A stretch of DNA of 38,380 nt, from assembly GCA_964511035.1 (NCBI GenBank), contig CAZEDP010000002.1:1-38380 (forward strand). The letters run 5' to 3'. This stretch comes from an uncultured Gammaproteobacteria bacterium (GTDB taxonomy: Bacteria > Cyanobacteriota > Vampirovibrionia > Gastranaerophilales > CAZEDP01). Positions 808 to 28,881 of the stretch are shown here, one piece after another; the stretch's first letter is position 1; every line of letters begins with the position of its first letter. The position numbers and the translations under genes are program-made. The notes beneath the pieces were generated by a model. The model did not search any database. It was given only the letters and a program-made list of their open reading frames with translations, and was not told the DNA's origin.

Positions 808-1380
808 TTGTTCATGATTGATAAAATTATCGAAAAATTAAATCGCCAAACTGTTGTTAAAAATCTTTTAAAATGGGAGATTATTATATTTGTTTTTGTA
901 AATTTAATTATTTTAACAAATATATTTCCATACATAGCAACATATCTTGCATATATGGGGTATTTATATATTAAGTGGCTATATAAAGCACAAATTGAGG
1001 GCATTTCTGTTATATTGATGTTGGCTATATATTTAATGCCTTTCTTAATAATTATAAAATATTTATTACTACCATTAACAATCTTTATCATATTAAGACT
1101 GAGTAAAAACAAAGAAATCATAACAAGAATAAGACTTGTTTTTCAAAATATTAACATCCAATTAAGGATAATTTTTTATGCTGTAGTAGTTGATATATTT
1201 GCTATTATTCTTTCATATCTAGCTAGATCTTTTATAGAACACTCTTATTATTATTCAGATTCAGATCTATTCTGGAGGTTAATTTTTGGAGGATTAACAG
1301 GGAGTTATCTGGTGCTTTTTTTATTCGGATTTATTTTTAAAAGGCTGAAAGGATTTTCATTATTGAAAAATGGAAAATAA
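808..1380 (+). CDS. multi-pass membrane protein of unknown function, directly upstream of an ImmD-like gene pair
   Basis: 190-aa ORF with several long hydrophobic stretches (IIIFVFVNLIILTNIF, VILMLAIYLMPFLIII, IIFYAVVVDIFAIILSYL, LTGSYLVLFLFGFIF). Its stop lies 2 nt before the next start codon. Confidence 0.5.
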   Translation: MFMIDKIIEKLNRQTVVKNLLKWEIIIFVFVNLIILTNIFPYIATYLAYMGYLYIKWLYKAQIEGISVILMLAIYLMPFLIIIKYLLLPLTIFIILRLSKNKEIITRIRLVFQNINIQLRIIFYAVVVDIFAIILSYLARSFIEHSYYYSDSDLFWRLIFGGLTGSYLVLFLFGFIFKRLKGFSLLKNGK

Positions 1381-1688: not shown

Positions 1689-2002
1689 AGATAAATATGA
1701 CAAATGAAGCATTAAATCATATCAATTTTTTGATAAAAATAGCTCAGGATTTTTTAAATAATAAAATTGATATTGAAGAGCTTGATATTGAGTTTGAGGA
1801 TTATTATGTAAATCATGCAAAAGAAATCTTTAATTATAGTCAAGAAATCTATGAATATCTTGATAATATAAGAATGGGAATTGACTATTATGAAGCTGAC
1901 CCTGAAGCAAGAGATTTGCCATGTTTGCTTGATGAGGATGGAGTGAGAAAGGAAACGAAAAGAGTTCTTGATGTATTGGCTGATAAATATAATTTGAGGT
2001 AA
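1685..2002 (+). CDS. ImmD-like small protein, paralogue 2 of 4
   Basis: The ATGA start/stop overlap with the upstream paralogue suggests translational coupling. An alternative start 12 nt downstream gives MTNEALNH, as in paralogue 1. The last ~40 nt are identical to the 3' end of 8971-9288. Confidence 0.6.
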   Translation: MKINMTNEALNHINFLIKIAQDFLNNKIDIEELDIEFEDYYVNHAKEIFNYSQEIYEYLDNIRMGIDYYEADPEARDLPCLLDEDGVRKETKRVLDVLADKYNLR

Positions 2003-2335
2003 TATGAAGCCGTAAATACGACAAATCAGTCCAAGTACACATTTGGGGGTCAGGTCACAAAGAGAGCTATGGTAATGTGTTTAACGATGGTCGGACTGCT
2101 TCGACTGTATAAGCAGTCTCGCAGTGACATGACCGGAGGTAAAGAGGGTTACGACTCTTGGCTTTGCTCAGAATAACGGTTATGGGATGGAAGAAAAAAA
2201 TGAAGACCTTGCGATGCTGAAATAAATTCGGCATGACGGCTAAACGTCTTGTAAAGCAGATCCTCACGCTCCCGTTGGTCACTGAGGATGACATTATTTA
2301 TGTTGTCTGATTTTATGTAATTATGGGGTATTTTT
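2003..2335. ncRNA. candidate structured non-coding element A (unclassified), related to 9289-9627
   Basis: GC-rich segment in AT-rich DNA. It shares the blocks GACCTTGCGATGC...CATGACGG, GTTATGG..GGGA and GAGGATGACAT with element B. It has a perfect 8-bp hairpin (GACTGCTT / AAGCAGTC, ~2093-2118) and a long-range 7-bp helix (CAGTGAC 2122-2128 with GTCACTG 2278-2284). Confidence 0.3.
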
Positions 2336-4278: not shown

Positions 4279-5121
4279 ATGGCTAATGACTTAACAAATT
4301 TTGTACCGGAAATTTGGTCGAAAAAATTGACCACATTGCTTGATAAATCCGGCGTTATGATGCAGTGCATTAACAGGGATTTTGAAGGCGATATAAAAAA
4401 TTCCGGCGATACGGTATATATCCGTTCTTTCGGCAATGTAACCGTAAAAACATATTCCGGCTCTATAACTTATGATGATTTGACTTCGCCCTTGCAAACA
4501 TTGTTAATCGATCAGAAAAAATACTTTGCATTCAAGGTTGATGATGTTTCCAAAGCTCAGTCAAACATCAACATCATGAGCGGCTACCTTGAAAGAGCCC
4601 GTGTTGCTATCGACCTTGCCAAGGACAGTTTTTTACTTGCAAAACATGCAGATGTCCCGAGTGAAAACGTCGTAGGTTCGGAAGAAACACCGGTTGAACT
4701 TACAAAAGACAATATTTATTCGAATTTTGTTGCTATGGCAAAAGCTCTTAAAAAGGCTAACGCTATCACAAAAGGGCAAAAACCCTGGATTGTCATAAAT
4801 CCTGATATCGAAGCTCTTTTAATACAGGCTCCGGAATTCATCCATGCTACTCATTCAGGTGATAATACCTTGAGAGAAGGTTCTATCGGAAAGATTGCCG
4901 GCTTGGACGTTTTGGTCTGTACTAATTTTGAAGCAACTGCCGGCAAATATTATGTGCTTGCAGGTACAAACAATGCCGTTACCTTTGCCTCTCAGGTCGT
5001 TGAAGTTGAATCGATCAGGCTTCAGGATTCATTTGATACAGCCGTCAGAGGTCTCTATGTTTACGGCGCTAAAACAGTCGTAGCAAATGCGCTTGCCAAA
5101 TTAATCTGCACTATATCATAA
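4279..5121 (+). CDS. phage major capsid protein (HK97-fold; P22-coat / N4-gp56-like N-terminal signature)
   Basis: 280 aa. N-terminus NFVPEIWSKKL...NRDFEGDIKNSGDTVYIR is typical of this coat family as I recall it. RBS GGAAAGGAAAAA is present, the gene follows the scaffold gene, and a strong terminator follows it. Confidence 0.75.
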   Translation: MANDLTNFVPEIWSKKLTTLLDKSGVMMQCINRDFEGDIKNSGDTVYIRSFGNVTVKTYSGSITYDDLTSPLQTLLIDQKKYFAFKVDDVSKAQSNINIMSGYLERARVAIDLAKDSFLLAKHADVPSENVVGSEETPVELTKDNIYSNFVAMAKALKKANAITKGQKPWIVINPDIEALLIQAPEFIHATHSGDNTLREGSIGKIAGLDVLVCTNFEATAGKYYVLAGTNNAVTFASQVVEVESIRLQDSFDTAVRGLYVYGAKTVVANALAKLICTIS

Positions 5122-6357: not shown

Positions 6358-7077
6358 ATGACTAACTTTGACGATATATTGAAAAATGTTTGCGTGCTTG
6401 TTCATGAGGAGCCGCCTGTCAATTTTGACGACGATAACCCGCCGTTTCCGGAAATCAAACAGTATATTAAAGAAATCTTGAGTGAAGTCTGTTTAAGGTT
6501 CCCTTTTACCTTCAGGGAAAGAAAATATACTTTCCAAACCACATCAGGACAAAAAGAATATGATATTTCCGCAAATGTTCAACTCAACAGCATTCTTAAA
6601 GACGGGGTAAGAATTGAAGATACTCTTCTGCCTCTGTATTTTGTTAAGCACAGTGACCTCGATAAACTTTCGGAAGAAAGCGGAAAGCCGTTAAGATATT
6701 CTATTTTCGGCGGAAAATTAATACTTGACCCGATACCGGACAGTTCTTATTCCGTTCAGATTAAATTTTTGACGCAGAACTGCGCTTTTAACAGTGATAA
6801 AACTGAAGAAAAAGATAATCTTGAAGATGCAGCAGATGTACCGCTAATACCCGAGAAGTTCATAAAAGTAATTGAATGGGGGACAGCGTCCCTTTACAGA
6901 CAGAATTACAAACCCGATGAAAAATACAAGTTCACAAGAGAAAAATTCCTTGAGTATCTGCTTGAAATGCAAAGACAGGACGGTTACGGCGGAGATTCCG
7001 AAGGGAGAATTGTGTTCGAAAAGGGATTTGATAGTAATTCGTCGCTTATAAAAGAATTTTTCAGAACAGATATTTAA
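6358..7077 (+). CDS. phage structural protein (possible head-tail adaptor)
   Basis: 239-aa ORF with RBS GAAAGGAAAAAA, located between the capsid and other virion genes. Assignment is by position and general resemblance only. Confidence 0.35.
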   Translation: MTNFDDILKNVCVLVHEEPPVNFDDDNPPFPEIKQYIKEILSEVCLRFPFTFRERKYTFQTTSGQKEYDISANVQLNSILKDGVRIEDTLLPLYFVKHSDLDKLSEESGKPLRYSIFGGKLILDPIPDSSYSVQIKFLTQNCAFNSDKTEEKDNLEDAADVPLIPEKFIKVIEWGTASLYRQNYKPDEKYKFTREKFLEYLLEMQRQDGYGGDSEGRIVFEKGFDSNSSLIKEFFRTDI

Positions 7078-7100: not shown

Positions 7101-8657
7101 ATGAATAAAAGAGATTATACGGGGTATGTAAACCCGAAATTGAATGATTCGAATAAAATATTCACAAGGGAAGAAATCGCGAAAATGCCGAGGGCTGAAT
7201 TTGCGGCTAATGAAAAAGCTATTGATTATCAACTAGGAACAATCGGAATACCATCCGAAAACGATTTGCAGGGTAGCAGCGGGGTTGTCCATGTCAGAGC
7301 ATATACAAAAGGTGACGGAACCGACGTAAGAGAACATTATCGCTCTGCTCCCAATCGACAGTCAAATACTTGGGGAATGGGAGTTGATGAGGATAAAAAT
7401 AACAAACCTGATTCAGATGAGGATAAAACACCCGCCCCTAATCCAAAACCGACTGAAGATCCAAACACTGATAAAAATCCAAATCCAAAAACTCCCGATC
7501 CCGAAAATAATTCCGGCGATGTGCTCAAAGGCGGAATAGTTATTAATGAATACAACGAAAATGCTAAAGGAAGTATACCCTATCTTGCAATTGCTATTGC
7601 TATAGGCGCTTTAGTTTTAACAGCGGTAAAAATTGCTGCAGCAATCGCCGGAACCAAATCTCAACAGACTATATCCGGTAGTCCAATTAATGCAATTGAA
7701 ATTAATAATAATAGTTCCGAAAGAATTAAAACGCATCAGGCAAGAAATGTTCAAATACAAAATTATAAAGCTCAATTAGTAAATATAATTAAAGAATCCA
7801 GAACATTGCTGGAAAAACAAAAGTCAGAACTCCAAAGTTTCGAAAACAAAATAGCTAAAAATAATAACCAATCTGTTCATAAACAATTGTGGGCTGAATA
7901 TTCAGCTAATAAATCGTTGTATCAAGACAACAAAGCTAAAATCGACAAATTGGAAAATATGGTAAATAATAACCAGTTTCAGGAAATTGCAAGGGATTAT
8001 AAGAATTCATACGCAGAAGAAGGAGGAGGAGGAAATCCTAAATCATCTGGTAATGACAGATTAAAAGGTTTTAGACCATTATCGTATAATTGGAAAACAG
8101 CTGTACAACAATCTCGAGAAGCAACTATAAATGACTTAATAAACTACGGACTCTTTTCCGCAAGTTTTGCAGGTGTTCCCGGCATTGAAGAACAGGCTAT
8201 CGCAAAAGCTCTACCTATTGTTGGCAAGATGGGACAAGGGGCTTTGGCTAGAACTCCTTTAATACGAAACGTATATGAGAGGCTCTCGGAAAAAGCAATA
8301 ATAAAATTTATTGAAGAAAAAGTTGCTCAAATGCCGAAAGTATACAAAGGAAGACCTTCAAATCCCTCTCTTTACAAAGAAAAACTTTATAGAACATATT
8401 ATACTTTGAAAAATAACGGTTATTTGGTAAATCGTCATGCAGTGCCAAGAATTGTGCAACGGATTAATCAGGGTAAAATCAGTTCGGTAGAAAAAATTCT
8501 AGAAGTTTTAAAAAAGGGTCATTTGTATTATGATCCTGTTGAAAATAATTATGTGCGTTACGCAGACAATGTGGCTGTAATTATTGATAGATATACAGGT
8601 GAAATAGTAAATGCAATTGGTAGGGGAACTAACCCTTACTGGATTTTGAAAAAATGA
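7101..8657 (+). CDS. virion-module protein with scaffold-type N-terminal motif, one TM helix and a C-terminal RelE/BrnT/DUF4258-like putative RNase toxin domain
   Basis: aa 21-45 FTREEIAKMPRAEFAANEKAIDYQL matches the scaffold tail. A P/D/N/K linker follows, then a TM helix at aa 159-184 (IPYLAIAIAIGALVLTAVKIAAAIAG). The C-terminus reads NRHAVPRIVQRINQGKISSVEKILEVLKKGHLYYD...NVAVIIDRYTGEIVNAIGRG. ImmD-like genes start 11 nt downstream. Confidence 0.5.
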   Translation: MNKRDYTGYVNPKLNDSNKIFTREEIAKMPRAEFAANEKAIDYQLGTIGIPSENDLQGSSGVVHVRAYTKGDGTDVREHYRSAPNRQSNTWGMGVDEDKNNKPDSDEDKTPAPNPKPTEDPNTDKNPNPKTPDPENNSGDVLKGGIVINEYNENAKGSIPYLAIAIAIGALVLTAVKIAAAIAGTKSQQTISGSPINAIEINNNSSERIKTHQARNVQIQNYKAQLVNIIKESRTLLEKQKSELQSFENKIAKNNNQSVHKQLWAEYSANKSLYQDNKAKIDKLENMVNNNQFQEIARDYKNSYAEEGGGGNPKSSGNDRLKGFRPLSYNWKTAVQQSREATINDLINYGLFSASFAGVPGIEEQAIAKALPIVGKMGQGALARTPLIRNVYERLSEKAIIKFIEEKVAQMPKVYKGRPSNPSLYKEKLYRTYYTLKNNGYLVNRHAVPRIVQRINQGKISSVEKILEVLKKGHLYYDPVENNYVRYADNVAVIIDRYTGEIVNAIGRGTNPYWILKK

Positions 8658-8668
8658 GGTAAATAAAT

Positions 8669-8974
8669 ATGGTAAATGATGCAATGAATCATATCAATTT
8701 TTTAATAAACATGGCTAATGATTTTTTGAATAATAGAATTGATATATATGAATTTTGTATTGAGTTTGAAAATTATCTTGAAGATAATATGACAAACATA
8801 TCAGATTATAACAGCGAAATCTATGAATATCTTGAAGATATAAGAATGGGAATTGCAAATTATGAATCTATTCCCGAGGCTAGGGATCGTCCTTACTTTC
8901 TTGATGAGGACGGAGTGAGGAAGAGAACTAAAAGTGTTCTCGATAAATTATCAAGCAAATATAATCTCAGGTGA
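8669..8974 (+). CDS. ImmD-like small protein, paralogue 3 of 4 (candidate cognate immunity)
   Basis: 101 aa with GAGG RBS. Same motif set as 1383-1688 (FLNNRIDIYEFCIEFENYL ... YESIPEARDRPYFLDEDGVRKRTKSVLD). Confidence 0.6.
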   Translation: MVNDAMNHINFLINMANDFLNNRIDIYEFCIEFENYLEDNMTNISDYNSEIYEYLEDIRMGIANYESIPEARDRPYFLDEDGVRKRTKSVLDKLSSKYNLR

Positions 8975-9288
8975 AGATAAATATGACAAATGAAGCATTA
9001 AATCATATTAAATTTTTAATAAATATGGCTAATGATTTTTTGAATAATAGAATTGATATAGAGGAATTTGATATTGAATATCAAGATTATTTTGAAAATC
9101 ACTCAAAAGAAATTTTAGAATATAATAAAGACGTTTATGAATATCTTGATCATATATATATGGGTGTTGAGTACTATGAATCTATTCCTGAGGCTAGAGA
9201 TCGCCCTTACTTTCTTGATGAGGACGGAGTGAGGAAGAGAACTAAAAGTGTTCTTGATGTATTGGCTGATAAATATAATTTGAGGTAA
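8971..9288 (+). CDS. ImmD-like small protein, paralogue 4 of 4
   Basis: GTGA overlap with the upstream gene. An internal ATG gives MTNEALNH. Roughly two-thirds identical by eye to 1685-2002, with an identical 3' end. Confidence 0.6.
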   Translation: MKINMTNEALNHIKFLINMANDFLNNRIDIEEFDIEYQDYFENHSKEILEYNKDVYEYLDHIYMGVEYYESIPEARDRPYFLDEDGVRKRTKSVLDVLADKYNLR

Positions 9289-9627
9289 TTGGGAATATAT
9301 TAATGTGAAGTTGGGATTCATTCACACGTCCCATTTGGACTGGACTGACACTGTGAATGGTATTCTTTGCTTGCGCTTAGTTCTGGCATTATAGGGACAG
9401 ATCCCCACGTTCGCGGAGTTTACACTGAGCAGAGCGAATGTACTCTCTGAGGATGACATGGTTTGTTATGGTTGGGATACGACCTTGCGATGCCGTGTCG
9501 GTACACGACATGACGGGGGCTTTTTGGATTGCTTCGTCACTCTGCTCCTTGCAATAGGGGTATTCGCTTTTGTGGATTTTTAGCGTTTTTAAATGTTAGA
9601 AAAAGTTTTTAATATTACTAATCATTA
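9289..9627. ncRNA. candidate structured non-coding element B (unclassified), related to 2003-2335
   Basis: No ORF of 60 aa or more on either strand. By hand count, 34 of 60 bases are G/C at 9481-9540, against 8 of 60 at 9001-9060. Helices: ATTCACA 9320-9326 with TGTGAAT 9352-9358; GAGCAGAG 9427-9434 with CTCTGCTC 9540-9547. Shares conserved blocks with element A. Confidence 0.3.
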
Positions 9628-11103
9628 ATGAACAAGGAAATATTGCACATGGCTAAATTTAATTATTTTAATAACACAGGCGGGCTGAATAAATTTCTGT
9701 CCGAAGCGCAGCTAAACGAAAGCCCGAAAAGAACAGATTGGTTTGACGCTCAAAATGTAGAGTGCTATAAATCAGGCGGTATTCGCAAAATGAAGGGATG
9801 TAAAAATATTTTATTCTCCTCATTGCCCACAGACACTAGAATACTGGGGATTTTTGAATATGTTCGAGCAGGGGAGATTTATCCCGTTATCAACACTTCA
9901 GAAGGGAAATTGTATAAATTCGAAATAGAATCCGGCGAACTGAGCCTTTTGTATTCGGGACTTGATGCTAATGCAAAATGTCTTTATGCCAATTACAACA
10001 ACGGAGTAATTATTACCAACGGCATTGACAGCCCTATATTTTACGAGCTGGGAAACAATCCTGTTACACTTGGAGAAGACGCCCCCAAAGGACTGTCTTT
10101 GGAAATATTTAAATCAAGAGTATTCATAGCTAAAGATTCAACATTGTATTACAGCGCTCTGGGCAATCAGTTTGACTGGACAACAGAAAAAGATGCAGGT
10201 TATATCGGTAATTTTCATAATGACGCAAGCCCGATTACCGCTCTGAAAAATTACGGGGAATTCTTGGCAATATATAAGGAAAAAAGTGTTTATATTCTTT
10301 CGGGAAGCTCTCCTGATGATTATTCCATTAGTCCGGTAGCTGATAAAGGGTCTTTAAGTCCGTTTGGAATTGGAACAATTAACAACAACCAGTTTTTCTT
10401 CAACGGGGAATCCATTACACCGTTAAAATTCAATGAACTGGGACAGATTTTGCTCGACAACGACATCAGCATAAAAATTAAACCTGTCTTTGAAGAACTG
10501 GATAAAACAAAATTCAGTCAAACTATTTGCGTTCCTTATAAAAATAAAAATCAGATATGGTTTTATTTCGGAACAAAAGATTCTGATTGTTTAGATGAGT
10601 GTTATGTTTTTGATTATCTCAACAACTGCTGGTACAAAAGGAAAGGCATTCCCATAGTCTGCGCCGGAATTATTGACGGTGAAATCTATACCGGAACTTC
10701 CGACGGAAGAATACTTCAGGAAAACTCAACCGATAGTTTTGACGGAGAAAATATTGAAGCATGGTGGGTATCACCGTGGTTTTGTTTTGACTCCCCTCAA
10801 AATGAAAAGGAAATGTCGGATTTTAATATCTGGCTCTATGAATCTCAAAAGTGCCCCATTGAAATCAGCTTTTATAAGAATTTCAAAAATATTCCGTTCA
10901 AAACAGCGGGAGTCAGCGTTTATAACAATAAAACACTGGTTTGGGACGGTAATAACTGGGTAGAAAATAACTATGCGAACGAGTATTCAAAAAGAAAGAA
11001 TGTGAAAATTAACGGAAGATTTGAACAATTACAGATAAAAATAAGCAATTTGAATGCTAATGAACCTTTTGAAGTTCTGGGGTTTTCATTTGAGCTTGAG
11101 TAG
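9628..11103 (+). CDS. phage virion structural protein (tail/nozzle-type guess)
   Basis: 491-aa ORF. An alternative start at ATG 9649 has an AAGGA RBS. The N-terminus NNTGGLNKFLSEAQLNESPK...AQNVECYKSGGIRKMKG resembles podovirus structural proteins as I recall them. No firm family assigned. Confidence 0.4.
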   Translation: MNKEILHMAKFNYFNNTGGLNKFLSEAQLNESPKRTDWFDAQNVECYKSGGIRKMKGCKNILFSSLPTDTRILGIFEYVRAGEIYPVINTSEGKLYKFEIESGELSLLYSGLDANAKCLYANYNNGVIITNGIDSPIFYELGNNPVTLGEDAPKGLSLEIFKSRVFIAKDSTLYYSALGNQFDWTTEKDAGYIGNFHNDASPITALKNYGEFLAIYKEKSVYILSGSSPDDYSISPVADKGSLSPFGIGTINNNQFFFNGESITPLKFNELGQILLDNDISIKIKPVFEELDKTKFSQTICVPYKNKNQIWFYFGTKDSDCLDECYVFDYLNNCWYKRKGIPIVCAGIIDGEIYTGTSDGRILQENSTDSFDGENIEAWWVSPWFCFDSPQNEKEMSDFNIWLYESQKCPIEISFYKNFKNIPFKTAGVSVYNNKTLVWDGNNWVENNYANEYSKRKNVKINGRFEQLQIKISNLNANEPFEVLGFSFELE

Positions 11104-13290: not shown

Positions 13291-13743
13291 ATGGTTGAAA
13301 TATGTTCGCCTGAAATGTTATACATAAAACTCGTTTCCGAGGGTTTTCCGATAAATTCCAACCTGTTTGCAACCAAGAACTTTAGGTGGAAAGAGTTGTT
13401 AATAAATCAAACCAAAGTTCCAACTCTGGCAGTAATCGTGAATTTGTTCAAAACAGCTTCTCTACTCCAGAAATACAGAGAGCTGATTTTTGAAAATTCC
13501 CCGATAATAATAACATCAGGTTGGAGATCAAAAGAATATAACAAAAAAATTGGCGGAGCTCCAAATTCATATCATATTCATGGCATGGCTCTCGACTTTG
13601 TTTGCACCAAGTTTTCCCCTCAGAAAGTACAAAAAAAATTAAATCCGGTTCATCAGGGGGGATTGGAGTTCGCACCCACATGGACACATATTGACATTAG
13701 AAAGGAAAGAACCAGATTTGACAGTAAAGGAAGGGTTGTGTAG
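13291..13743 (+). CDS. peptidase M15A-type (zinc D-Ala-D-Ala carboxypeptidase fold) endolysin
   Basis: SGWRSKEYNKKIGGAPNSYHIHGMALDF (H-x6-D) and a distal TWTHIDIR histidine: the Peptidase_M15_3 signature. Confidence 0.8.
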   Translation: MVEICSPEMLYIKLVSEGFPINSNLFATKNFRWKELLINQTKVPTLAVIVNLFKTASLLQKYRELIFENSPIIITSGWRSKEYNKKIGGAPNSYHIHGMALDFVCTKFSPQKVQKKLNPVHQGGLEFAPTWTHIDIRKERTRFDSKGRVV

Positions 13744-15542: not shown

Positions 15543-18500
15543 TTATGAATGCCAGGACATAGCAATAATATTCATCAACCCGGCATTTGCTTTGACAGCA
15601 TTAACACTGGTCAGACTAATGCCATTAGCAGCTGCATAAGCTGTCATGTCCTGAAGAATTAAGTTAACGTCCGTATTGGTTATGTAACTATTGTCGCTTA
15701 ATTGGATTTTTTCTATTTGTCCGCTTGCTGAATTCCAGTTTTTAACCTTGATTACATCAGCGTTTCCTGTTTCACCGTAATCCAAATATAAATTTCCGGC
15801 ATTATCTTTGAACATGGCAATGTTTGTTTTATCAACACTTGAACCAAATTTTATAACATCATCACCGCCGGTATCCTTGACCGTGTCTATGTTATCACCT
15901 TTCTCAAATACGTAAACATCATTTCCTCCACCGCCATTCAAATCATCGTTTCCTACTTCACCGATTAAAAGGTCATCTCCAAGTCCGCCGTCAATTTTAT
16001 CATCTCCTCCATTGCCGATTAAATTATCATTGTCTTTGTGACCGTTGATGGAATTATCGCCTGAATTGCCTAATATTGTATTACTGCCAGAATTTCCATT
16101 GGCATTGATATTATCAACTCCATTCATAGTCAGGTTTTCCACATTTTCGGGCAATGTATAACTGACGCCGGAAATTATTTCGTCCGTTCCCTCACCTGAA
16201 TTTTCAGTAACAATGTCACCGTTATTATCAACGTAATAGACGTCATCTCCGCCGCCGCCTGCCATAATATCAGCACCGCTTCCGCCGTCTATAACATCAT
16301 CTCCTCCGGTTCCGATCAAACTGTCATCAGAATCAGAGCCTTCAATGACCGCAAATAAGCTTTCAATGTCTGCGGAGGTTAATGAAGATCCATCGGCAAA
16401 TTCTAATTTTTCGATTTTGTTCTCAGCAACTAATTGATTTGTAATCAGTATGCTGTCCTGTGTCAAATTGCCATCCGCATCTTTTAGCGTAATCAAAACA
16501 TCATAATCTGATACAGATTTTGTTATAACCAAATCATTCTGAGTAATTCCTTCACCGAATACTATTTTGTCATCAGCTCCTGCATCAAACCATGAAAATC
16601 CTTCACTATCACTGTCAAATATTGTATCCTGACCGTCGCCTCTGTTAAATATATATGTATCGTTATCGCTTCCACCGCCGAGAAGGTCATCACCGGTTCC
16701 TCCGGTTAGTATATCATTTCCGTAACCGCCTTCTAAATCATCACTGCCGTTTTCTCCGTAAAGAAAATCATCTCCGTCATCGCCATAAAGTGTGTCATCT
16801 CCTTCACCGCCGTATATGTTATCAGTACCGCCTCCGGCATAGAGGGAGTCATTTCCGCCGTTTCCGTAAATATCTTCATTGGTAGTTGAACCGAATATTG
16901 TATCGGCTTCGTCAGTGCCCTGTTTAATAATCTTTCCATAGGTTATTATCGACTCGACATCATCGCAGGAAATACTGCTTCCGTTAGCAAATTCAAAGGT
17001 TTCAATTCTATAATTTGCAGAGGATTCATATTGATATTGCACTATAATCTGGTCATTGGATAGTCCGTTAACAGGGTCTTTGATTTTAACTAACAGATCG
17101 AGATTTTGTTTTTCAAACGACAAATTATCAAGGGTGATTCCTTCTCCGAACCTGATTGTATCCGTCCCGTAGTTCTCTCTGATTTTGTCCTGACCGTCTC
17201 CGATATTGAAGACATAGACATCATCTCCGGAACCGCCAATTAGCTCATCATTGCCCGTGCCGCCGTTTAATATATCGTTTCCGGAACCGCAGTTTAAAAT
17301 GTCATCACCTGCTTCGCCGTAGATGGTCATGCTGCCGGTATAATATCTCCATAATGAATTGGTATGATAACTCCAGACATAATCATTTCCGTCACCGCAG
17401 TAAACTGTATCATTACCGTCCCCTACATCTATAAAGTCATTTCCTTCTCCACCGTACAGCATGTCATCTCCGCCGTTACCCTGCAAATTATCATCACCTG
17501 ATTCGCCGTAAATCCTGTCACCGAAATTACTGCCGCTGATTGTATCATTTCCTGACGTGCCGTGTGTTGAAAATGTGCTTTCCAGTTCGTCTGACGTTAA
17601 CACCGTTCCGTCAGCAAATTCAAAGTTCTCTATCCTTGATAATCTTGTATCCCAATAGTCTTTAACGAAATATTCGTACAACTCAATCTTATCTGTGCTG
17701 TTTTTATAGGTAATCTCCAAACTGGCTCCGTTAACGCTGAAATTAAGGTCATCCAGCGTTATTCCTTCTCCGAACCTTATAGTATCATTTCCATAGCTTT
17801 CCCTGATTTTGTCCAGACCGTCTCCGATATTGAAGACATAGACATCGTCTCCGGAACCGCCCATCAACTCATCATTGCCCGTGCCGCCGACCAATAAATC
17901 ATTCCCCGGTCCGCAGTTTAAAATGTCATCGCCTGCTTCGCCGTATATGGTCATGCTGCCGGTATAATATCTCCATAATGAATTGGTATGATAACTCCAG
18001 ACATAATCATTTCCGTCACCGCAGTAAACTGTATCATTACCGTCCCCTACATCTATAAAGTCATTTCCTTCTCCACCGTACAGCATGTCATCTCCGCCGT
18101 TACCCTGCAAATTATCATCACCTGATTCGCCGTAAATCCTGTCACCGAAATTACTGCCGCTGATTGTATCATTTCCTGACGTGCCGTGTGTTGAAAATGT
18201 GCTTTCCAGTTCGTCTGACGTTAACACCGTTCCGTCAGCAAATTCAAAGTTCTCTATCCTTGATAATCTTGTATCCCAATAGTCTTTAACGAAATATTCG
18301 TACAACTCAATCTTATCTGTGCTGTTTTTATAGGTAATCTCCAAACTGGCTCCGTTAACGCTGAAATTAAGGTCATCCAGCGTTATTCCTTCTCCGAACC
18401 TTATAGTATCATTTCCATAGCTTTCCCTGATTTTGTCCAGACCGTCTCCGATATTGAAGACATAGACATCGTCTCCGGAACCGCCCATCAACTCATCATT

Positions 18501-20606
18501 GCCCGTGCCGCCGACCAATAAATCATTCCCCGGTCCGCAGTTTAAAATGTCATCGCCTGCTTCGCCGTATATGGTCATGCTTCCCGTATAGTATCTCCAA
18601 GAAGAATTAGCATGATAACTCCAGACATAATCATTTCCGTCACCGCAGTAAACGGTATCTTGCCCTGCTCCTACGTCAATGCTGTCATTTCCTTTTCCGC
18701 CGTACAGAGTGTCATCACCTTCCCAGCCTTTTAGGGCATCCGCAAAAGACATTCCGATAAATACTTGTACACTGCCGTTAAGAATATCATAATGTTTTTG
18801 GTCTATTTTCCCTTCGAAAAGAGTGTAAGGCATGTTTCCTTCGTCGCTCAGCGTTTTTAAGATTAAACTCATATAATCTTTGCCGATATCGGTTTGAGAA
18901 TTCATCTGTTCGGCAATACTGTTTACAGCAGACGAAATATCTGAAGGAAAGATTATTTTATCGGATGCGAGATCGTACTGAGCCTCGCTAAAAGAACCGG
19001 CAAGCTGACTTTGCGCAACAAAATGAGCAAACATAAGGTCTCTTAGTTTTTTATAAGACATATCTATGTTACCAATAACTTCTGAAATCAGCGGAACCTC
19101 TGTTGAAAATTCGTCAGTGCTGCCGGGAGGATAGTATTTGTATACTTCTCCCATAAACTTTTCGAGTATCGAGAGTTTCCTGTCATTATAATAAGGTCCC
19201 CTTCCCGCATTGATGTCCACATCATCCACCCCTGCCCATTTAGCAAGAAGCTCATCCATTGCGGAACACACTTCTGATAAGTCAGTCAGGTTTGTCATTT
19301 CTGAAACAAAGTCTTTTAATTCGGGATTTTCGCTCATTGCGATTGAGAGGTCTTTTACATCCCCGTAGCCTTTTAATAAAGGCAGTCCGATAATTGAAGC
19401 ATCCAGAACAATCGGACCCGTTGTAACAGAGTTAATTTGATTAATTAATAAATTCACATCGGCGGCTGTTTGTGTCCTTCCGTCGGAATAAGTGAAGGTC
19501 GAAACTTCCGAAATGAGATTTTCGTTATTAAGTTGGTTTACACTTGCAGGGTTGAGGTTAATTGACGTTATACCCAAATCCGATAAGGTATTTACTTCAT
19601 AGCTCTCTGCAATTCCGTTTCCGTCAATATCACGCCAGACTTTAATTTGATTGAATATTTCATCGTTTGCGTCAATGATGTTATCGTTATTGGTATCATT
19701 GGTTTTCATTTCTTCAAAGCCTGTTATTTCAGGGCTTCCGAATAGTTCGCTAATCCCGTCAATCTGACCGTTATTATTCCCATCAACGACAAGTATCCCG
19801 TTATTTGGGCTTATCCAACCGACTCTTTCTGCTATGCCGTCTCCGTCGAGGTCAAAATAAGCATTTGAATTTGTAATGGCTATTGTCTCAATTCCGCCAC
19901 CGTCAAGGTCTATAACCAACGGGTCAAGCCTTGTATGGACACTGTTATTATAACAAAACTGTGCGGAGTTGATTACAGGGTTGAGGGATGGGGGTATAAC
20001 CGGTTCCATGTCTGGCAGCCAGTCGCCGGGGGCAAATTCTCCCTCGCCAGGGATGGTCAGTAAGTCACCGGGCTTGATGAGGACAAAAGACTTATCGGCA
20101 TTCGTCCTGTCGGCAAGCCAAGGGTTGGCAGAGAGCAGTTCGTCAAGGGTTTTGTTGTGTTTTTGGGCAATCGCCCATAAAGAGTCTCCCGATTTGACAG
20201 TGTAAAAAGAATTTAGCTCATAACCAGTGTCAGATAGAGAATTTTCATTATAATTATTCTCACTTTTTAATTTTTCAAAAATGCTGTCACATGTTGTTTT
20301 TATTGCCCCTTCACTTTGTAAATTCCAAGTATTTATACTATAAAAAACATAACCCGCTGTAGCAAGGGAAATCGCCCCACACCCAAATGTACCGGTTCCT
20401 AACGTAGATGCCTCACAATAAGCAAAAACTACCGTACCTGTTGCTAATGAAGTCGAAATTTTAATATCTTGAAGACCATTTTGAACCAATGCTTCAGAGA
20501 TGTTACAAGTTAAAGCTTGAGTAGCATCACTTTTGTCATCTCTAATTTTCATGCTTGTTATTAAAAGTTCTAAAATATCAGTAAATACTTTTAAATAATT
20601 TTCCAT
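15543..20606 (-). CDS. giant RTX-repeat exoprotein with N-terminal hydrophobic Gly-rich segment and LysM domain
   Basis: 1687 aa. LysM at aa 135-185 (YTVKSGDSLWAIAQKHNKTLDELL...IKPGDLLTIP, nt ~20052-20204). PLVIDLDGGGIET / FDLDGDGIAE / DGNNNGQIDG block typical of large RTX proteins. Dozens of GGxGxD nonapeptides (e.g. GGTGNDELMGGSGDDVYVF). Confidence 0.9.
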   Translation of the reverse strand: MENYLKVFTDILELLITSMKIRDDKSDATQALTCNISEALVQNGLQDIKISTSLATGTVVFAYCEASTLGTGTFGCGAISLATAGYVFYSINTWNLQSEGAIKTTCDSIFEKLKSENNYNENSLSDTGYELNSFYTVKSGDSLWAIAQKHNKTLDELLSANPWLADRTNADKSFVLIKPGDLLTIPGEGEFAPGDWLPDMEPVIPPSLNPVINSAQFCYNNSVHTRLDPLVIDLDGGGIETIAITNSNAYFDLDGDGIAERVGWISPNNGILVVDGNNNGQIDGISELFGSPEITGFEEMKTNDTNNDNIIDANDEIFNQIKVWRDIDGNGIAESYEVNTLSDLGITSINLNPASVNQLNNENLISEVSTFTYSDGRTQTAADVNLLINQINSVTTGPIVLDASIIGLPLLKGYGDVKDLSIAMSENPELKDFVSEMTNLTDLSEVCSAMDELLAKWAGVDDVDINAGRGPYYNDRKLSILEKFMGEVYKYYPPGSTDEFSTEVPLISEVIGNIDMSYKKLRDLMFAHFVAQSQLAGSFSEAQYDLASDKIIFPSDISSAVNSIAEQMNSQTDIGKDYMSLILKTLSDEGNMPYTLFEGKIDQKHYDILNGSVQVFIGMSFADALKGWEGDDTLYGGKGNDSIDVGAGQDTVYCGDGNDYVWSYHANSSWRYYTGSMTIYGEAGDDILNCGPGNDLLVGGTGNDELMGGSGDDVYVFNIGDGLDKIRESYGNDTIRFGEGITLDDLNFSVNGASLEITYKNSTDKIELYEYFVKDYWDTRLSRIENFEFADGTVLTSDELESTFSTHGTSGNDTISGSNFGDRIYGESGDDNLQGNGGDDMLYGGEGNDFIDVGDGNDTVYCGDGNDYVWSYHTNSLWRYYTGSMTIYGEAGDDILNCGPGNDLLVGGTGNDELMGGSGDDVYVFNIGDGLDKIRESYGNDTIRFGEGITLDDLNFSVNGASLEITYKNSTDKIELYEYFVKDYWDTRLSRIENFEFADGTVLTSDELESTFSTHGTSGNDTISGSNFGDRIYGESGDDNLQGNGGDDMLYGGEGNDFIDVGDGNDTVYCGDGNDYVWSYHTNSLWRYYTGSMTIYGEAGDDILNCGSGNDILNGGTGNDELIGGSGDDVYVFNIGDGQDKIRENYGTDTIRFGEGITLDNLSFEKQNLDLLVKIKDPVNGLSNDQIIVQYQYESSANYRIETFEFANGSSISCDDVESIITYGKIIKQGTDEADTIFGSTTNEDIYGNGGNDSLYAGGGTDNIYGGEGDDTLYGDDGDDFLYGENGSDDLEGGYGNDILTGGTGDDLLGGGSDNDTYIFNRGDGQDTIFDSDSEGFSWFDAGADDKIVFGEGITQNDLVITKSVSDYDVLITLKDADGNLTQDSILITNQLVAENKIEKLEFADGSSLTSADIESLFAVIEGSDSDDSLIGTGGDDVIDGGSGADIMAGGGGDDVYYVDNNGDIVTENSGEGTDEIISGVSYTLPENVENLTMNGVDNINANGNSGSNTILGNSGDNSINGHKDNDNLIGNGGDDKIDGGLGDDLLIGEVGNDDLNGGGGNDVYVFEKGDNIDTVKDTGGDDVIKFGSSVDKTNIAMFKDNAGNLYLDYGETGNADVIKVKNWNSASGQIEKIQLSDNSYITNTDVNLILQDMTAYAAANGISLTSVNAVKANAGLMNIIAMSWHS
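17190..18730 (-). repeat. 624-bp (208-aa) tandem repeat, ~2.5 units, inside the giant RTX gene
   Basis: CGATATTGAA anchors at 17201, 17825 and 18449 give a period of 624. About 17290-17957 and 17914-18581 are near-identical, and exact from ~17323. The flanking partial units are more diverged. Confidence 0.9.
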
Positions 20607-28695: not shown

Positions 28696-28729
28696 GTGTC
28701 GATAATTTAACTTTAAATTATAAAAAACT

Positions 28730-28816
28730 CGGAGGAGGGGGGATTCGAACTCCCGGTGGCCTTGCGACCACGACGGTTTTCAAGACCGCTCCTTTAAACC
28801 ACTCAGGCACTCCTCC
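28730..28816 (-). tRNA. tRNA-Ser (anticodon UGA), class II with long variable arm
   Basis: The reverse complement reads GGAGGAG-TG-CCT..AGG-A-GCGGT-CTTGAAA-ACCGT-(CGTGGTCGCAAGGCCACC)-GGGAG-TTCGAAT-CCCCC-CTCCTCC-G. It has a 7-bp acceptor stem, a 3-bp D stem and a TTCGAAT T-loop. There is one A-C mismatch in the T stem, and no encoded CCA. Confidence 0.85.
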
Positions 28817-28881
28817 AAGAGTATAACTATATTACTATATAAGCTAAATTAATGCCAACAGATTTTTTTTGAAAATAAAAA

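What the first reader, a model, noticed from the sequence alone, without database searches (positions are those of the whole stretch)
9289..9627. GC-rich ORF-free ~330-nt element after the immunity pair, conserved in blocks with a second copy 7 kb away
Directly after each second ImmD-like gene the composition jumps. By hand count, 34 of 60 bases are G/C at 9481-9540, against 8 of 60 at 9001-9060. No ORF of 60 aa or more exists here.

Element B shares ordered blocks with element A (2003-2335):
- (G)GATGACATG
- GTTATGG..GGGA
- GACCTTGCGATGC, then a hairpin, then CATGACGG
- GTCAC

The hairpin between GCGAT and ATGACGG differs in sequence between the two copies but pairs in both. A has GCTGA aataaat TCGGC. 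B has CCGTGTCG gtaca CGAC(atg)ACGG. That is the pattern expected for a conserved RNA structure.

B also has an outer helix (GAGCAGAG 9427-9434 with CTCTGCTC 9540-9547) and a 5' hairpin (ATTCACA 9320-9326 with TGTGAAT 9352-9358). GAGCAGAG can alternatively pair locally with CTCT at ~9443-9446.

I could not match the element to any RNA family I know. It could be a structured RNA, for example a late-gene leader or antiterminator, or an RNA partner of the toxin-immunity cassette. It could equally be a protein-bound recombination site; the recurring (G)ACATGAC / CATGACGG words fit that reading.
Basis: seen in the sequence. Interest (0 to 1): 0.75.

Follow-up and report, generated by a model that had tools for sequence, protein, structure and literature searches.

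The report
Clusters of mobile REP-type hairpin repeats
The two GC-rich, gene-free stretches after the immunity genes are clusters of short palindromic "REP-type" hairpin repeats of a known kind found in many bacteria and phages, not a dedicated RNA partner of the toxin-immunity genes.

Summary
B (core 9300-9560) has 49% GC in a 35% GC window, has no ORF of 60 aa or more, and shares two exact 13-mers with A.

The explanation is ordinary. Read on the minus strand, both elements break down into hairpin units with the grammar of CGTC-tagged REPs (Di Nocera 2013). That is the class of Neisseria dRS3/NTS and the "Ssn-related motifs" cut by small GIY-YIG nucleases (Chenal 2025).
- A holds units Y, X and W.
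- B holds units Z, X and Y, plus an untagged hairpin.

Patterns taken from these units find many copies elsewhere:
- 84 stretches in IMG/VR.
- 33 stretches in GTDB genomes: Flavobacteriia, Sphingomonadales and Treponema, and five loci in one Melainabacteria MAG, the likely host clade.
- Related phage contigs carry such units in many intergenic gaps.
- Eight of the 33 genome loci have a 92-aa GIY-YIG gene beside the unit.

There is no link to ImmD. The closest relative has three ImmD genes and no units. No locus carrying A/B-like units has an ImmD gene.

Rfam finds nothing and fold z-scores are weak. Its "protein-bound site" alternative is close to the mark.

This is a new member of a known kind, of low to moderate interest.

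The parts
2004..2238 (-). Mosaic module of element A, containing units W and X. It recurs in a 505-nt metagenome contig (L171) with different DNA on both sides.
   Evidence: blastn gives 81% identity over 259 columns including two indels; alignment. L171 was found through the spurious 75-aa ORF.
2092..2129 (-). Unit W. Minus strand reads TGTC-ACTGC...GCAGT-CCG. It is Z-like with a compensatory change (ATTGC/GCAAT to ACTGC/GCAGT) and contains the inner hairpin GACTGCTT/AAGCAGTC.
   Evidence: Read from the sequence. ...GTCTCGCAGTGACAT matches ...GTCTCGCAATGACAT in L031. The Z profile gives only a weak hit here (E 3.8).
2211..2238 (-). Unit X_A. Minus strand reads CGTC-ATGCCGAA-TTTAT-TTCAGCAT-CGC: tag, 8-bp stem starting AT, 5-nt loop, 3-nt tail. 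One C.A mismatch on the tag strand is a G.U/G.T wobble on the + strand.
   Evidence: The family profile hits 2241-2208(-) at E 4.3e-11, the only significant hit in the window. It is 93-97% identical to units in Tenacibaculum, Chitinophagales and Treponema.
2257..2293 (-). Unit Y_A. Minus strand reads TGTC-ATCCTCA-(16-nt loop)-TGAGGAT-CTG.
   Evidence: The 5' end AGATCCTCACG is identical to units in the relative L007 and in IMG/VR contigs L164, L166, L168 and L169.
9320..9358 (.). Hairpin V (ATTCACA ... TGTGAAT) with a 25-nt loop. It has no CGTC/TGTC tag and no homologue was found.
   Evidence: Present in the sequence. Family membership is not shown.
9398..9458 (-). Unit Y_B. Minus strand reads TGTC-ATCCTCA-(40-nt loop)-TGGGGAT-CTG. 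The loop carries an inserted sub-module.
   Evidence: The best A-B local alignment falls here.
9410..9445 (-). Sub-module inside the Y_B loop (GAGCAGAGCGAATGTACTCTC hairpin region). It recurs as an insertion inside the A-like module of L171.
   Evidence: 92% identity over 36 nt to L171 212-247; seen in the alignment.
9487..9515 (-). Unit X_B. Minus strand reads CGTC-ATGTCGTGT-ACCG-ACACGGCAT-CGC: tag, 9-bp stem starting AT, 4-nt loop, 3-nt tail. This is a canonical CGTC-REP.
   Evidence: It is the only match in the window to the strict CGTC-REP grammar; 300 shuffles give a mean of 0.03. The 9-bp stem appears in the minus-strand MFE fold.
9525..9559 (-). Unit Z_B. Minus strand reads CCCT-ATTGC-(18 nt)-GCAAT-CCA. 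The tag is degenerate and the tail CCA is canonical.
   Evidence: The family profile hits 9555-9525(-) at E 3.4e-7. A pattern derived from it matches 84 IMG/VR stretches. The X_B+Z_B pair (9479-9554) is 84-86% identical to L025 and L027.
9563..9627 (+). AT-rich leader of the nozzle-like gene 9628-11103. It lies inside the finding's coordinates but is not part of the repeat cluster.
   Evidence: 90% identity to L003/L004 upstream of the orthologous gene; the homology starts at 9563.

Best explanation
**What it is.** Elements A (about 2004-2293) and B (about 9398-9559, perhaps from 9320) are intergenic clusters of short palindromic interspersed repeats of the REP class. More precisely, they belong to the CGTC/TGTC-tagged superfamily, which includes Neisseria dRS3/NTS and the 'Ssn-related motifs'.

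**Unit structure.** Each unit is a hairpin whose stem begins with AT. It is preceded by an unpaired CGTC or TGTC tag and followed by a 3-nt tail. In this window all tagged units have the tag on the minus strand. That is why the + strand shows recurring ...ATGAC(G/A) words.

**Why it is GC-rich.** The units keep their own sequence whatever the GC content of the genome that carries them. In a 35% GC phage they therefore stand out as a GC-rich, ORF-free island.

**How it most likely works (inferred, not shown).**
- The units are selfish or commensal DNA that spreads within and between genomes as single-strand hairpins.
- They are handled in trans by small single-domain GIY-YIG (Ssn-type) nucleases encoded elsewhere, probably by the host. 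The window encodes none.
- They settled in, or arrived with, the non-essential DNA at the 3' edge of two toxin-immunity moron cassettes.
- Once there, their likely effects are generic. They would form stable stem-loops in the read-through late transcript, acting as a 3'-exonuclease barrier or partial terminator, as shown for E. coli REPs. They would also provide dispersed homology and ssDNA cleavage sites that favour recombination.

They are not a specific RNA partner of the ImmD-like genes.
For: **Shown by tool results.**
1. *Grammar.* X_B fits the published CGTC-REP definition exactly: tag, 9-bp stem starting AT, 4-nt loop, tail. Shuffles give 0.03 such hits per window. X_A fits with one mismatch. 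Y_A, Y_B and W carry the TGTC variant tag, and Z_B carries the CCA tail (definitions read).
2. *Family membership.* Independent family profiles hit X_A at E 4.3e-11 and Z_B at E 3.4e-7, and nothing else in the 38 kb.
3. *Dispersal.*
   - The Z pattern (24 fixed bases) matches 84 IMG/VR stretches in contigs of 32-71% GC.
   - The X pattern matches 33 GTDB stretches in Flavobacteriia, Chitinophagales, Sphingomonadales and Treponema, in five loci of one Melainabacteria MAG, and in Ca. Spyradomonas.
   - The Y pattern recurs in IMG/VR.
   - The metagenome scan found B-like units (L025, L027) and A-like units (L031 between proB and proA; L042 beside an unannotated transposase-like ORF).
4. *Hairpin under selection.* There are 98 tag+8/5/8 hairpins in 1.38 Mb of fetched loci, against about 1.4 that I estimated by hand from base-pair odds. 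Their stems covary: ATGCTGAA, ACCCTGAA, AAACTGAA, ATTCCGAA and others.
5. *Nuclease link.* Eight of the 33 X loci carry a small GIY-YIG gene within 850 nt or less, often bracketed by units. One of them (92 aa) scores PF01541 at 3.6e-16. This matches the published NTS-ssnA-NTS architecture.
6. *Phage relatives.* Relatives of this phage from Melainabacteria-labelled contigs carry about 25 such units in many intergenic gaps and in both orientations.
7. *No ImmD linkage.* L003 has three ImmD genes and no unit. None of the other 169 loci has an ImmD gene.
8. *Mosaicism.* A 2004-2238 recurs in L171 with different flanks. A piece of B's Y loop is an insertion in that copy.
Against: - The published degenerate SRM search string has no match in the window. 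It also fails on the consensus of the X and Z families. Assignment to Ssn substrates therefore rests on grammar and on GIY-YIG neighbourhood in other genomes, not on the published pattern.
- Only the two X units have canonical stem and loop sizes. Y, Z and W have 5-7-bp stems and 16-40-nt loops, and V has no tag.
- All units here point the same way (head-to-tail). The literature describes mostly head-to-head dimers and rare clusters.
- No GIY-YIG gene is in the window, and I did not show that the host has one.
- Both clusters sit directly after the two ImmD pairs and nowhere else in 38 kb. By my own rough estimate that has a chance of about 1 in 300 if some 25 intergenic gaps were equally likely. 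Some tie to the cassettes is therefore not excluded, for example co-acquisition or a role in cassette recombination.
- Transcription and any RNA-level effect are untested.
- Wobble-pair counts give no strand preference (3 against 5).
Confidence: 0.8

Rival explanations
1. Portable recombination flank. The repeat clusters are kept at the 3' edge of the cassettes because they supply homology, or ssDNA cleavage sites, shared with host and other phage DNA. Toxin-immunity cassettes would then be captured, duplicated or swapped by recombination at the repeats. From my own knowledge, dRS3/NIME arrays have been proposed to play this role around exchangeable cassettes in Neisseria.
For: - Both clusters, and only they, follow the two ImmD pairs.
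- Sequence identity between the cassettes ends abruptly at the ImmD2 stop codon after 40 identical bases, while dS is 0.59.
- The A module recurs in L171 behind a different upstream ORF.
- In relative L010, a block of host-like genes (RelA/SpoT-like and H+-PPase) has a Z-type unit at one edge and a partial one at the other.
- Relatives L006-L009 have no cassette between the adaptor and nozzle genes, so the cassette is an insertion.
Against: - L003 carries a cassette with three ImmD genes at the same site without any unit.
- There are no units at the 5' edges of the cassettes.
- Units in the relatives also lie between core structural genes.
- The evidence rests on one window and one 505-nt contig.
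Confidence: 0.12
2. Dedicated cis-acting structured RNA on the + strand. This could be a leader or antiterminator for the downstream late gene, or an RNA component of the toxin-immunity system. It is the first reader's preferred reading.
For: - The position lies between co-oriented genes.
- Hairpins pair in both copies despite different sequence.
- X_A pairs better on the + strand (G.U) than on the minus strand (C.A).
- A weak terminator-like site lies at 9543-9562.
Against: - There is no Rfam match even at E <= 10.
- The + strand fold z-scores are -1.1 and -0.9.
- The order of shared blocks differs between A and B.
- The orthologous nozzle gene in L003/L004 keeps its leader but lacks the element.
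- The downstream genes of A and B are unrelated.
- The same units occur in both orientations and in unrelated contexts.
- There is no ImmD linkage.
Confidence: 0.04
3. Decayed or real coding sequence. Candidates are a degraded third ImmD copy, a remnant of a higher-GC gene, or a small gene on the minus strand of A: the 75-aa ORF 2067-2294, with promoter-like sites at 2347-2320 and a terminator-like hairpin at 2022-2009.
For: - The 75-aa ORF and the consensus sites are present.
- Both elements begin ATG TCA TCC TCA (MSSS) on the minus strand.
- The first 23 nt of A resemble the ImmD-ImmD junction.
- Each element is close in length to one 314-nt ImmD unit.
Against: - Local alignment of A or B against ImmD units scores no better than shuffles (z < 1).
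- The 75-aa ORF has no Pfam match. Its single database relative is the translation of the same repeat module in L171.
- The 62-aa + frame stretch of B has no relative.
- Spacing differences between the shared blocks are not multiples of three. The gap between TGGGAT and GACCTTGCG is 16 nt in A and 2 nt in B; the X hairpin inserts are 14 and 15 nt.
- The shared MSSS is simply the TGTC tag plus the stem of unit Y.
Confidence: 0.03

Closest known systems
CGTC-tagged REP superfamily (Di Nocera, De Gregorio & Rocco 2013, BMC Genomics 14:522; PMC3733652)
   Same: - An unpaired CGTC tag, or its described variant TGTC.
- A stem that starts with AT.
- An 8-9-bp stem and 4-5-nt loop in the two X units.
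- A 3-nt tail (CCA in Z_B).
- Multicopy, intergenic, found in several phyla including Bacteroidetes and Spirochaetes.
- No transposase gene nearby.
   Different: - Here the units sit in a phage genome and in Melainabacteria, neither of which is among the five phyla the paper lists for CGTC repeats.
- Units Y, Z and W have short stems and long loops.
- The units form same-orientation clusters rather than head-to-head dimers.
- I could not compare them with the paper's four family consensus sequences, because the figures are not held.
NTS/dRS3 and 'Ssn-related motifs' with Ssn GIY-YIG ssDNA nucleases (Chenal et al. 2025, Nat Commun 16:2388; PMC11893778)
   Same: - The layout matches NTS (CGTC-ATTCCCGC-GMAV-GCGGGAAT-CYRG): tag, AT-initiated palindrome, then a C after the palindrome.
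- The X family flanks small single-domain GIY-YIG genes in other genomes, like NTS-ssnA-NTS.
- The units cluster around particular genes.
   Different: - The published SRM search string does not match any unit here.
- No Ssn gene is in the window.
- Cleavage, and membership of the neighbouring nucleases in cd10448, were not tested.
- The Neisseria role in natural transformation need not apply to a phage.
Classical REP/BIME and REPIN-RAYT systems (E. coli, Pseudomonas)
   Same: - Short GC-rich extragenic palindromes clustered into mosaic elements between co-oriented genes.
- They are probably transcribed as part of operon mRNA.
- They are non-autonomous and served in trans by an enzyme that recognises hairpins.
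   Different: - Those carry a GTAG tag and are tied to Y1 HUH transposases (RAYTs). These carry CGTC/TGTC tags and are tied to GIY-YIG genes.
- Classical REP sequences are lineage-specific. The Z and X units here are nearly identical across contigs of 28-71% GC.
   Same: - Arrays of tagged palindromes separated by 20-100-nt segments that are themselves reused elsewhere.
- They lie next to exchangeable or variable cassettes.
   Different: - The unit sequences differ.
- The organism and replicon differ.
- No evidence here that a recombinase or phage integrase targets them.
   Same: Two copies per genome of a roughly 70-300-nt structured non-coding stretch upstream of gene blocks.
   Different: - put and nut sites are collinear copies tied to promoters, strand-specific and phage-specific.
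- Here the copies are mosaics of units that also occur in bacterial chromosomes in both orientations.
- The closest relative lacks them.

Membership tests
CGTC-tagged REP superfamily (PMC3733652) | Unpaired terminal tag CGTC (variants TGTC, CCTC) next to the palindrome | tested here: met
   X_A and X_B carry CGTC. Y_A, Y_B and W carry TGTC. Z_B has a degenerate CCCT and V has none (definition read).
CGTC-tagged REP superfamily (PMC3733652) | Stem of 8-9 bp with complementary A-T in the first and second positions; loop of 4-5 nt | tested here: inconclusive
   Met by X_B (9 bp, 4-nt loop). Met by X_A with one C.A mismatch (8 bp, 5-nt loop). Not met by Y (7 bp; loops of 16 and 40 nt), Z_B (5 bp; 18-nt loop) or W (ACTGC stem). 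The paper notes families with other loop lengths.
CGTC-tagged REP superfamily (PMC3733652) | Short unpaired 3-nt tail, mostly CCA | tested here: inconclusive
   The tails are CGC (X), CTG (Y), CCG (W) and CCA (Z_B). All have a C directly after the palindrome.
CGTC-tagged REP superfamily (PMC3733652) | Many dispersed, mostly intergenic copies in genomes | tested here: met
   84 IMG/VR stretches (Z pattern) and 33 GTDB stretches (X pattern), including five loci in one Melainabacteria MAG. In relative L006, where I compared unit positions with the gene table, the units lie in intergenic gaps.
CGTC-tagged REP superfamily (PMC3733652) | Predominantly head-to-head dimers; clusters rare | tested here: not met
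   In the window all tagged units point the same way, in clusters of three. Head-to-head pairs of the same families are common in other loci. This is an organisational tendency, not a strict criterion.
Ssn-related motifs / Ssn nuclease system (PMC11893778) | Match to the published degenerate string HGTCWYN(0-2)YYVSBRHN(0-5)WNVSBRGN(0-2)RNCYNB | tested here: not met
   No match on either strand of the window. The string also fails on the X and Z family consensus, while it does match NTS itself.
Ssn-related motifs / Ssn nuclease system (PMC11893778) | Repeats flank a small single-domain GIY-YIG (cd10448) gene in genomes that carry them | tested here: inconclusive
   Eight of the 33 X loci have a small GIY-YIG gene within 850 nt or less, several bracketed by hairpins. 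One (92 aa) scores PF01541 at 3.6e-16. CDD cd10448 membership could not be tested. None is in the window or in the fetched Melainabacteria loci.
Ssn-related motifs / Ssn nuclease system (PMC11893778) | Site-specific cleavage of the tag-strand ssDNA by the cognate Ssn | not testable with these tools
   This is a biochemical assay.
Curated structured RNA family (Rfam 15) | Covariance-model match at or near the gathering score | tested here: not met
   Only a tRNA is found in the window at gathering thresholds. At E <= 10, A and B give only chance-level hits (E 1.2-1.4, far below gathering).
MITE (miniature inverted-repeat transposable element) | Terminal inverted repeats and target-site duplication around a discrete insert | tested here: inconclusive
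   The A module has sharp homology ends against L171 (2004 and 2238). I saw no convincing terminal inverted repeat, and no empty site was available to define a duplication.
Decayed ImmD (PF09204) gene copy | Residual nucleotide or protein similarity to the adjacent ImmD units | tested here: not met
   Smith-Waterman scores against all four ImmD units are no better than shuffles (z from -1.2 to 0.9). Only the first 23 nt of A resemble the inter-gene junction.

The most novel reading that the evidence does not exclude
The tagged hairpin clusters are not mere passengers. They would be the device by which this phage lineage acquires, duplicates and exchanges accessory cassettes such as the toxin-immunity pairs here and the host-like gene blocks in relatives. 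They would supply sequence shared with the Melainabacteria host chromosome and with other phages. They would also supply sites where a host Ssn-type nuclease nicks single-stranded replication or recombination intermediates. Recombination would then be channelled to cassette edges. That would make REP/SRM repeats a general 'moron-capture' signal in phages.
Probability: 0.12. Interest if true: 0.55.

Novelty: new member of a known kind. Interest (0 to 1): 0.3.

Why it matters
- **It removes a false lead.** A GC-rich, ORF-free island with compensatory-looking hairpins in an AT-rich phage looks like a new regulatory RNA. It is repeat DNA of a described class. The same trap will recur wherever such repeats sit in AT-rich genomes.
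- **It extends the range of the class.** CGTC-tagged / Ssn-type hairpin repeats are here found in a podovirus-like phage and in Melainabacteria.
- **It adds independent support for the nuclease link.** The X subfamily in Flavobacteriia shows the same GIY-YIG association that was published for Neisseria in 2025. The 2013 survey had found no dedicated enzyme.
- **One open question is worth a population-level test.** Both clusters lie exactly at the 3' edges of the two toxin-immunity cassettes. This leaves open whether such repeats help phages pick up or shuffle accessory genes.

Tried and rejected
- **Rfam**, whole window at gathering thresholds and both elements at E <= 10: only a tRNA and chance-level hits.
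- **tRNA/tmRNA scan:** only tRNA-Ser at 28729-28817.
- **blastn of A and B against 50,697 phage records:** only short chance matches.
- **First IMG/VR scan** with GACCTTGCGATGC...CATGACGG: two chance hits in GC-rich coding DNA.
- **Protein-anchored IMG/VR scans** with the nozzle protein, one ImmD protein and an ImmD alignment: no relatives.
- **Exact look-up of the window's own nozzle protein:** not on record.
- **Alternative genetic code or hidden ORF:** six-frame translation shows stops in all frames of B.
- **Loose 'AT-stem-ATGAC' hairpin scan:** not specific, 25 hits against 19 in shuffles. I replaced it with the strict published grammar.
- **Promoter/terminator scans:** counts do not exceed shuffles; isolated sites only.
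- **Literature search by sequence strings and by typical spurious peptide strings:** nothing useful. Keyword searches then led to the two key papers.
- **Protein search with B's 62-aa open frame:** no candidates.
- **IMG/VR scan with a 23-mer from unit W:** no match.
- **Strand asymmetry of wobble pairs** across the family, to decide which strand folds: 3 against 5, uninformative.
- **Decayed-ImmD hypothesis:** rejected.
Full report
**1. Setting**

The window has 35% GC. It carries a podovirus-like structural module:
- major capsid protein at 4279-5121;
- SU10-type adaptor at 6358-7077;
- a nozzle-like virion protein at 9628-11103;
- an endolysin at 13291-13743.

Homologues of the nozzle protein come from contigs labelled Candidatus Melainabacteria or Cyanobacteria UBA9579.

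Four ImmD-like genes (PF09204) form two tandem pairs, at 1383-2002 and 8669-9288. In relatives L006-L009 the adaptor gene is followed directly by the nozzle gene. The block 7101-9627 is therefore an inserted accessory cassette.

**2. The observation**

B has no ORF of 50 aa or more. A has a 75-aa ORF on the minus strand.

A and B share two exact 13-mers and CATGACGG, which is more than shuffles give. They are not collinear copies:
- CTGAGGATGACAT follows the GCGAT-hairpin-ATGACGG block in A but precedes it in B.
- The ImmD2 genes are 81% identical (dS 0.59) and their last 40 nt are identical. Even so, ungapped identity drops to random directly after the stop codon.
- The last 65 nt of the finding's range belong to the conserved leader of the nozzle gene.

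**3. RNA tests**

- Rfam finds nothing for either element, even at E <= 10.
- Folding z-scores are -1.1 and -0.9 on the + strand, and -2.5 and -1.8 on the minus strand.
- Related phage loci contain no homologue of the GC-rich core.
- The closest relative (93% identical nozzle protein; L003/L004) has three ImmD genes. These are followed by a 224-nt AT-rich spacer without the element.

**4. Finding homologues**

One metagenome scan with GACCTTGCGATGC-N(8-30)-CATGACGG gave 33 loci. About that many chance matches were expected, by my own estimate before the scan. Four AT-rich loci were real:
- L025 and L027 share B's hairpin block and the following GGATTGCTTCGTCAC...GCAA block.
- L031 carries the A-type hairpin between proB and proA.
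- L042 carries the A-type hairpin beside an unannotated transposase-like ORF (my reading; no domain search was run).

These showed that A and B are built from modular hairpins with a common layout.

**5. The grammar**

Read on the minus strand, the units are:

| Unit | Minus-strand reading |
|---|---|
| X_A | CGTC-ATGCCGAA-TTTAT-TTCAGCAT-CGC |
| X_B | CGTC-ATGTCGTGT-ACCG-ACACGGCAT-CGC |
| Y_A | TGTC-ATCCTCA-(16 nt)-TGAGGAT-CTG |
| Y_B | TGTC-ATCCTCA-(40 nt)-TGGGGAT-CTG |
| W (in A) | TGTC-ACTGC...GCAGT-CCG |
| Z_B | CCCT-ATTGC-(18 nt)-GCAAT-CCA |

This is the definition of CGTC-tagged REPs given by Di Nocera et al. 2013:
- a tag CGTC, often TGTC or CCTC;
- stems of 8-9 bp that begin with AT;
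- loops of 4-5 nt;
- a 3-nt tail, mostly CCA;
- presence in several phyla;
- no dedicated transposase.

The strict grammar finds X_B as the only hit in the window, against 0.03 per shuffle. X_A differs by one mismatch.

**6. The families are widespread**

- *Z pattern.* A pattern taken from Z_B (24 fixed bases) matches 84 stretches of IMG/VR contigs with 32-71% GC. It often forms head-to-head pairs with GTCATTGCGAGCGAAGCGAAGCAATCC.
- *X pattern.* A pattern taken from X_A matches 33 stretches of GTDB genomes. These include Tenacibaculum, Mesonia, Dokdonia, Chitinophagales, Sphingomonadales, Treponema, Ca. Spyradomonas, and five loci of one Melainabacteria MAG.
- *Y pattern.* Y-type units recur in IMG/VR.
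- *Profiles.* Profiles built from these collections hit X_A (E 4.3e-11) and Z_B (E 3.4e-7), and nothing else in the window.
- *Counts.* Across all fetched loci there are 98 tag+8/5/8 hairpins, where I estimated about 1.4 by chance. Their stems covary.

**7. Link to a nuclease**

Eight of the 33 X loci encode a small single-domain GIY-YIG protein within 850 nt or less. Several of these genes are bracketed by a left hairpin (GTCACCCTGAA...TTCAGGGTC) and the X hairpin. One of them (92 aa) scores PF01541 at 3.6e-16.

Chenal et al. 2025 showed three things relevant here:
- Neisseria NTS (CGTCATTCCCGCGMAVGCGGGAATCYRG, which includes dRS3, a CGTC-1 REP) is bound and cut in single-stranded DNA, not RNA, by the GIY-YIG nuclease SsnA.
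- Thousands of homologues are flanked by similar hairpins.
- The NTS-ssnA-NTS layout resembles an insertion sequence.

Their degenerate SRM string does not match the units here or the X and Z consensus. I therefore file the elements under the broader CGTC-REP class and treat the Ssn connection as likely but unproven. The window encodes no GIY-YIG protein.

**8. No tie to ImmD, but a tie to cassette edges**

- Relatives L006-L012 carry about 25 Z-, Y- or X-type units in both orientations. In L006, where I checked unit positions against the gene table, they lie in intergenic gaps between structural genes.
- Among 171 fetched loci (1.38 Mb), ImmD homologues occur only in L003/L004, which lack units.
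- A's module 2004-2238 recurs in L171 behind a different ORF and before different DNA. A 36-nt piece of B's Y loop is an insertion in that copy.

The elements are therefore mosaics of reusable pieces, like BIMEs or NIMEs. They are not decayed ImmD copies.

One thing remains unexplained. The only two clusters in 38 kb both lie directly after ImmD pairs, and all tagged units point the same way. Co-acquisition with the cassettes, local duplication followed by rearrangement, or a role in cassette recombination are all possible.

**9. Mechanism**

*Shown:*
- the identity of the units as REP-class tagged hairpins;
- their dispersal;
- stem covariation;
- GIY-YIG neighbourhood in other genomes;
- absence of ImmD linkage.

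*Inferred:*
- they spread as ssDNA hairpins handled by host Ssn-type nucleases;
- in the phage they act at most as generic hairpins in the late transcript, or as recombination-prone sites.

Wobble-pair counts do not say which strand folds.

**10. Verdict**

The finding is real but ordinary: a new member of a known kind. It is of modest interest for three reasons:
- the repeats lie in a phage and in Melainabacteria;
- the GIY-YIG link is independently confirmed for another subfamily;
- the question about cassette edges remains open.

Noticed in passing
window 7101-9288, compared with L006-L009 and L003: A 518-aa protein with no recognised toxin domain, plus two ImmD-like genes, is inserted between the adaptor and nozzle genes. 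Relatives L006-L009 have these two genes adjacent. L003 has a different 566-aa protein, four small ORFs and three ImmD genes at the same site. This looks like a variable toxin-immunity moron slot inside the virion gene module.
   Followed up: partly
window 808-1380: The first ImmD pair is preceded not by a toxin-like protein but by a 190-aa, apparently multi-pass membrane protein with a TTG start and no Pfam or PHROG match.
   Followed up: no
window 1965-2004 and 9251-9290: The last 40 nt of the second ImmD gene, including the stop codon, are identical in the two cassettes, although the genes differ by dS 0.59. Identity then ends abruptly. This suggests recent gene conversion or a recombination boundary at the stop codon.
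   Followed up: partly
window 2004-2026: ATGAAGCCGTAAATACGACAAAT resembles the ImmD-ImmD junction and gene start (ATGAAGATAAATATGACAAAT). It may be a relic of a further ImmD copy. The match is not significant on its own, and the same string is present in L171.
   Followed up: partly
L005 2455-4950, L010 2597-6246, L012 4221-7890: Relatives of this phage carry an H+-translocating pyrophosphatase gene (PF03030) on the opposite strand between the capsid and adaptor genes. In L010 a RelA/SpoT-like gene sits beside it. This is an unusual cargo inside a structural gene cluster. In L010 one edge of the block has a Z-type hairpin unit and the other edge a partial one.
   Followed up: no
L046-L125 (IMG/VR) and L130-L162 (GTDB): The Z unit (GATTGCTTCGTCGCTNNGCTCCTCGCAATGAC) and the X unit (GCGATGCTGAAACAAGTTCAGCATGACGG) are almost identical in contigs ranging from 28% to 71% GC and across several phyla. 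That is far more conserved than lineage-specific REPs and implies horizontal spread or a strong sequence constraint.
   Followed up: partly
L137 182-210, L141 1403-1431, L150 3379-3407 (Melainabacteria MAG CAKUTX01): In three loci the X hairpin abuts the ATG of a prepilin-like gene (MDFTKKVAFTLAEVLITLGIIG...) with no room for a ribosome-binding site. An in-frame ATG inside the hairpin would add MLNLFQHR to the protein. This could have a regulatory effect or cause start-codon mis-annotation.
   Followed up: no
L027 about 290-530, and L025: A B-like X+Z unit pair interrupts or truncates a GIY-YIG-like ORF (MENKAYIYVLKCPISGLVRYVGST...; PF01541 E 2.5e-4, just below the cut-off). The two 1-kb contigs look like permuted assemblies of the same repeat-rich region.
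   Followed up: partly
window 2347-2009, minus strand: Sigma-70-like sites (TTGATA-16-CATAAT at 2347-2320), the 75-aa ORF 2294-2067 and a terminator-like hairpin at 2022-2009 line up as a possible antisense transcription unit across element A. Site counts do not exceed shuffles, and the ORF is a translation of repeat DNA.
   Followed up: partly
window 17463-17513 and 18087-18137, inside ORF 15543-20606: Identical 51-nt strings lie 624 nt apart inside the 1687-aa protein, which has an N-terminal transglycosylase/peptidase-like region. This indicates a long internal tandem duplication.
   Followed up: no
window 28729-28817, minus strand: tRNA-Ser (anticodon TGA) with a long variable arm is the only RNA gene detected in the window.
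   Followed up: no
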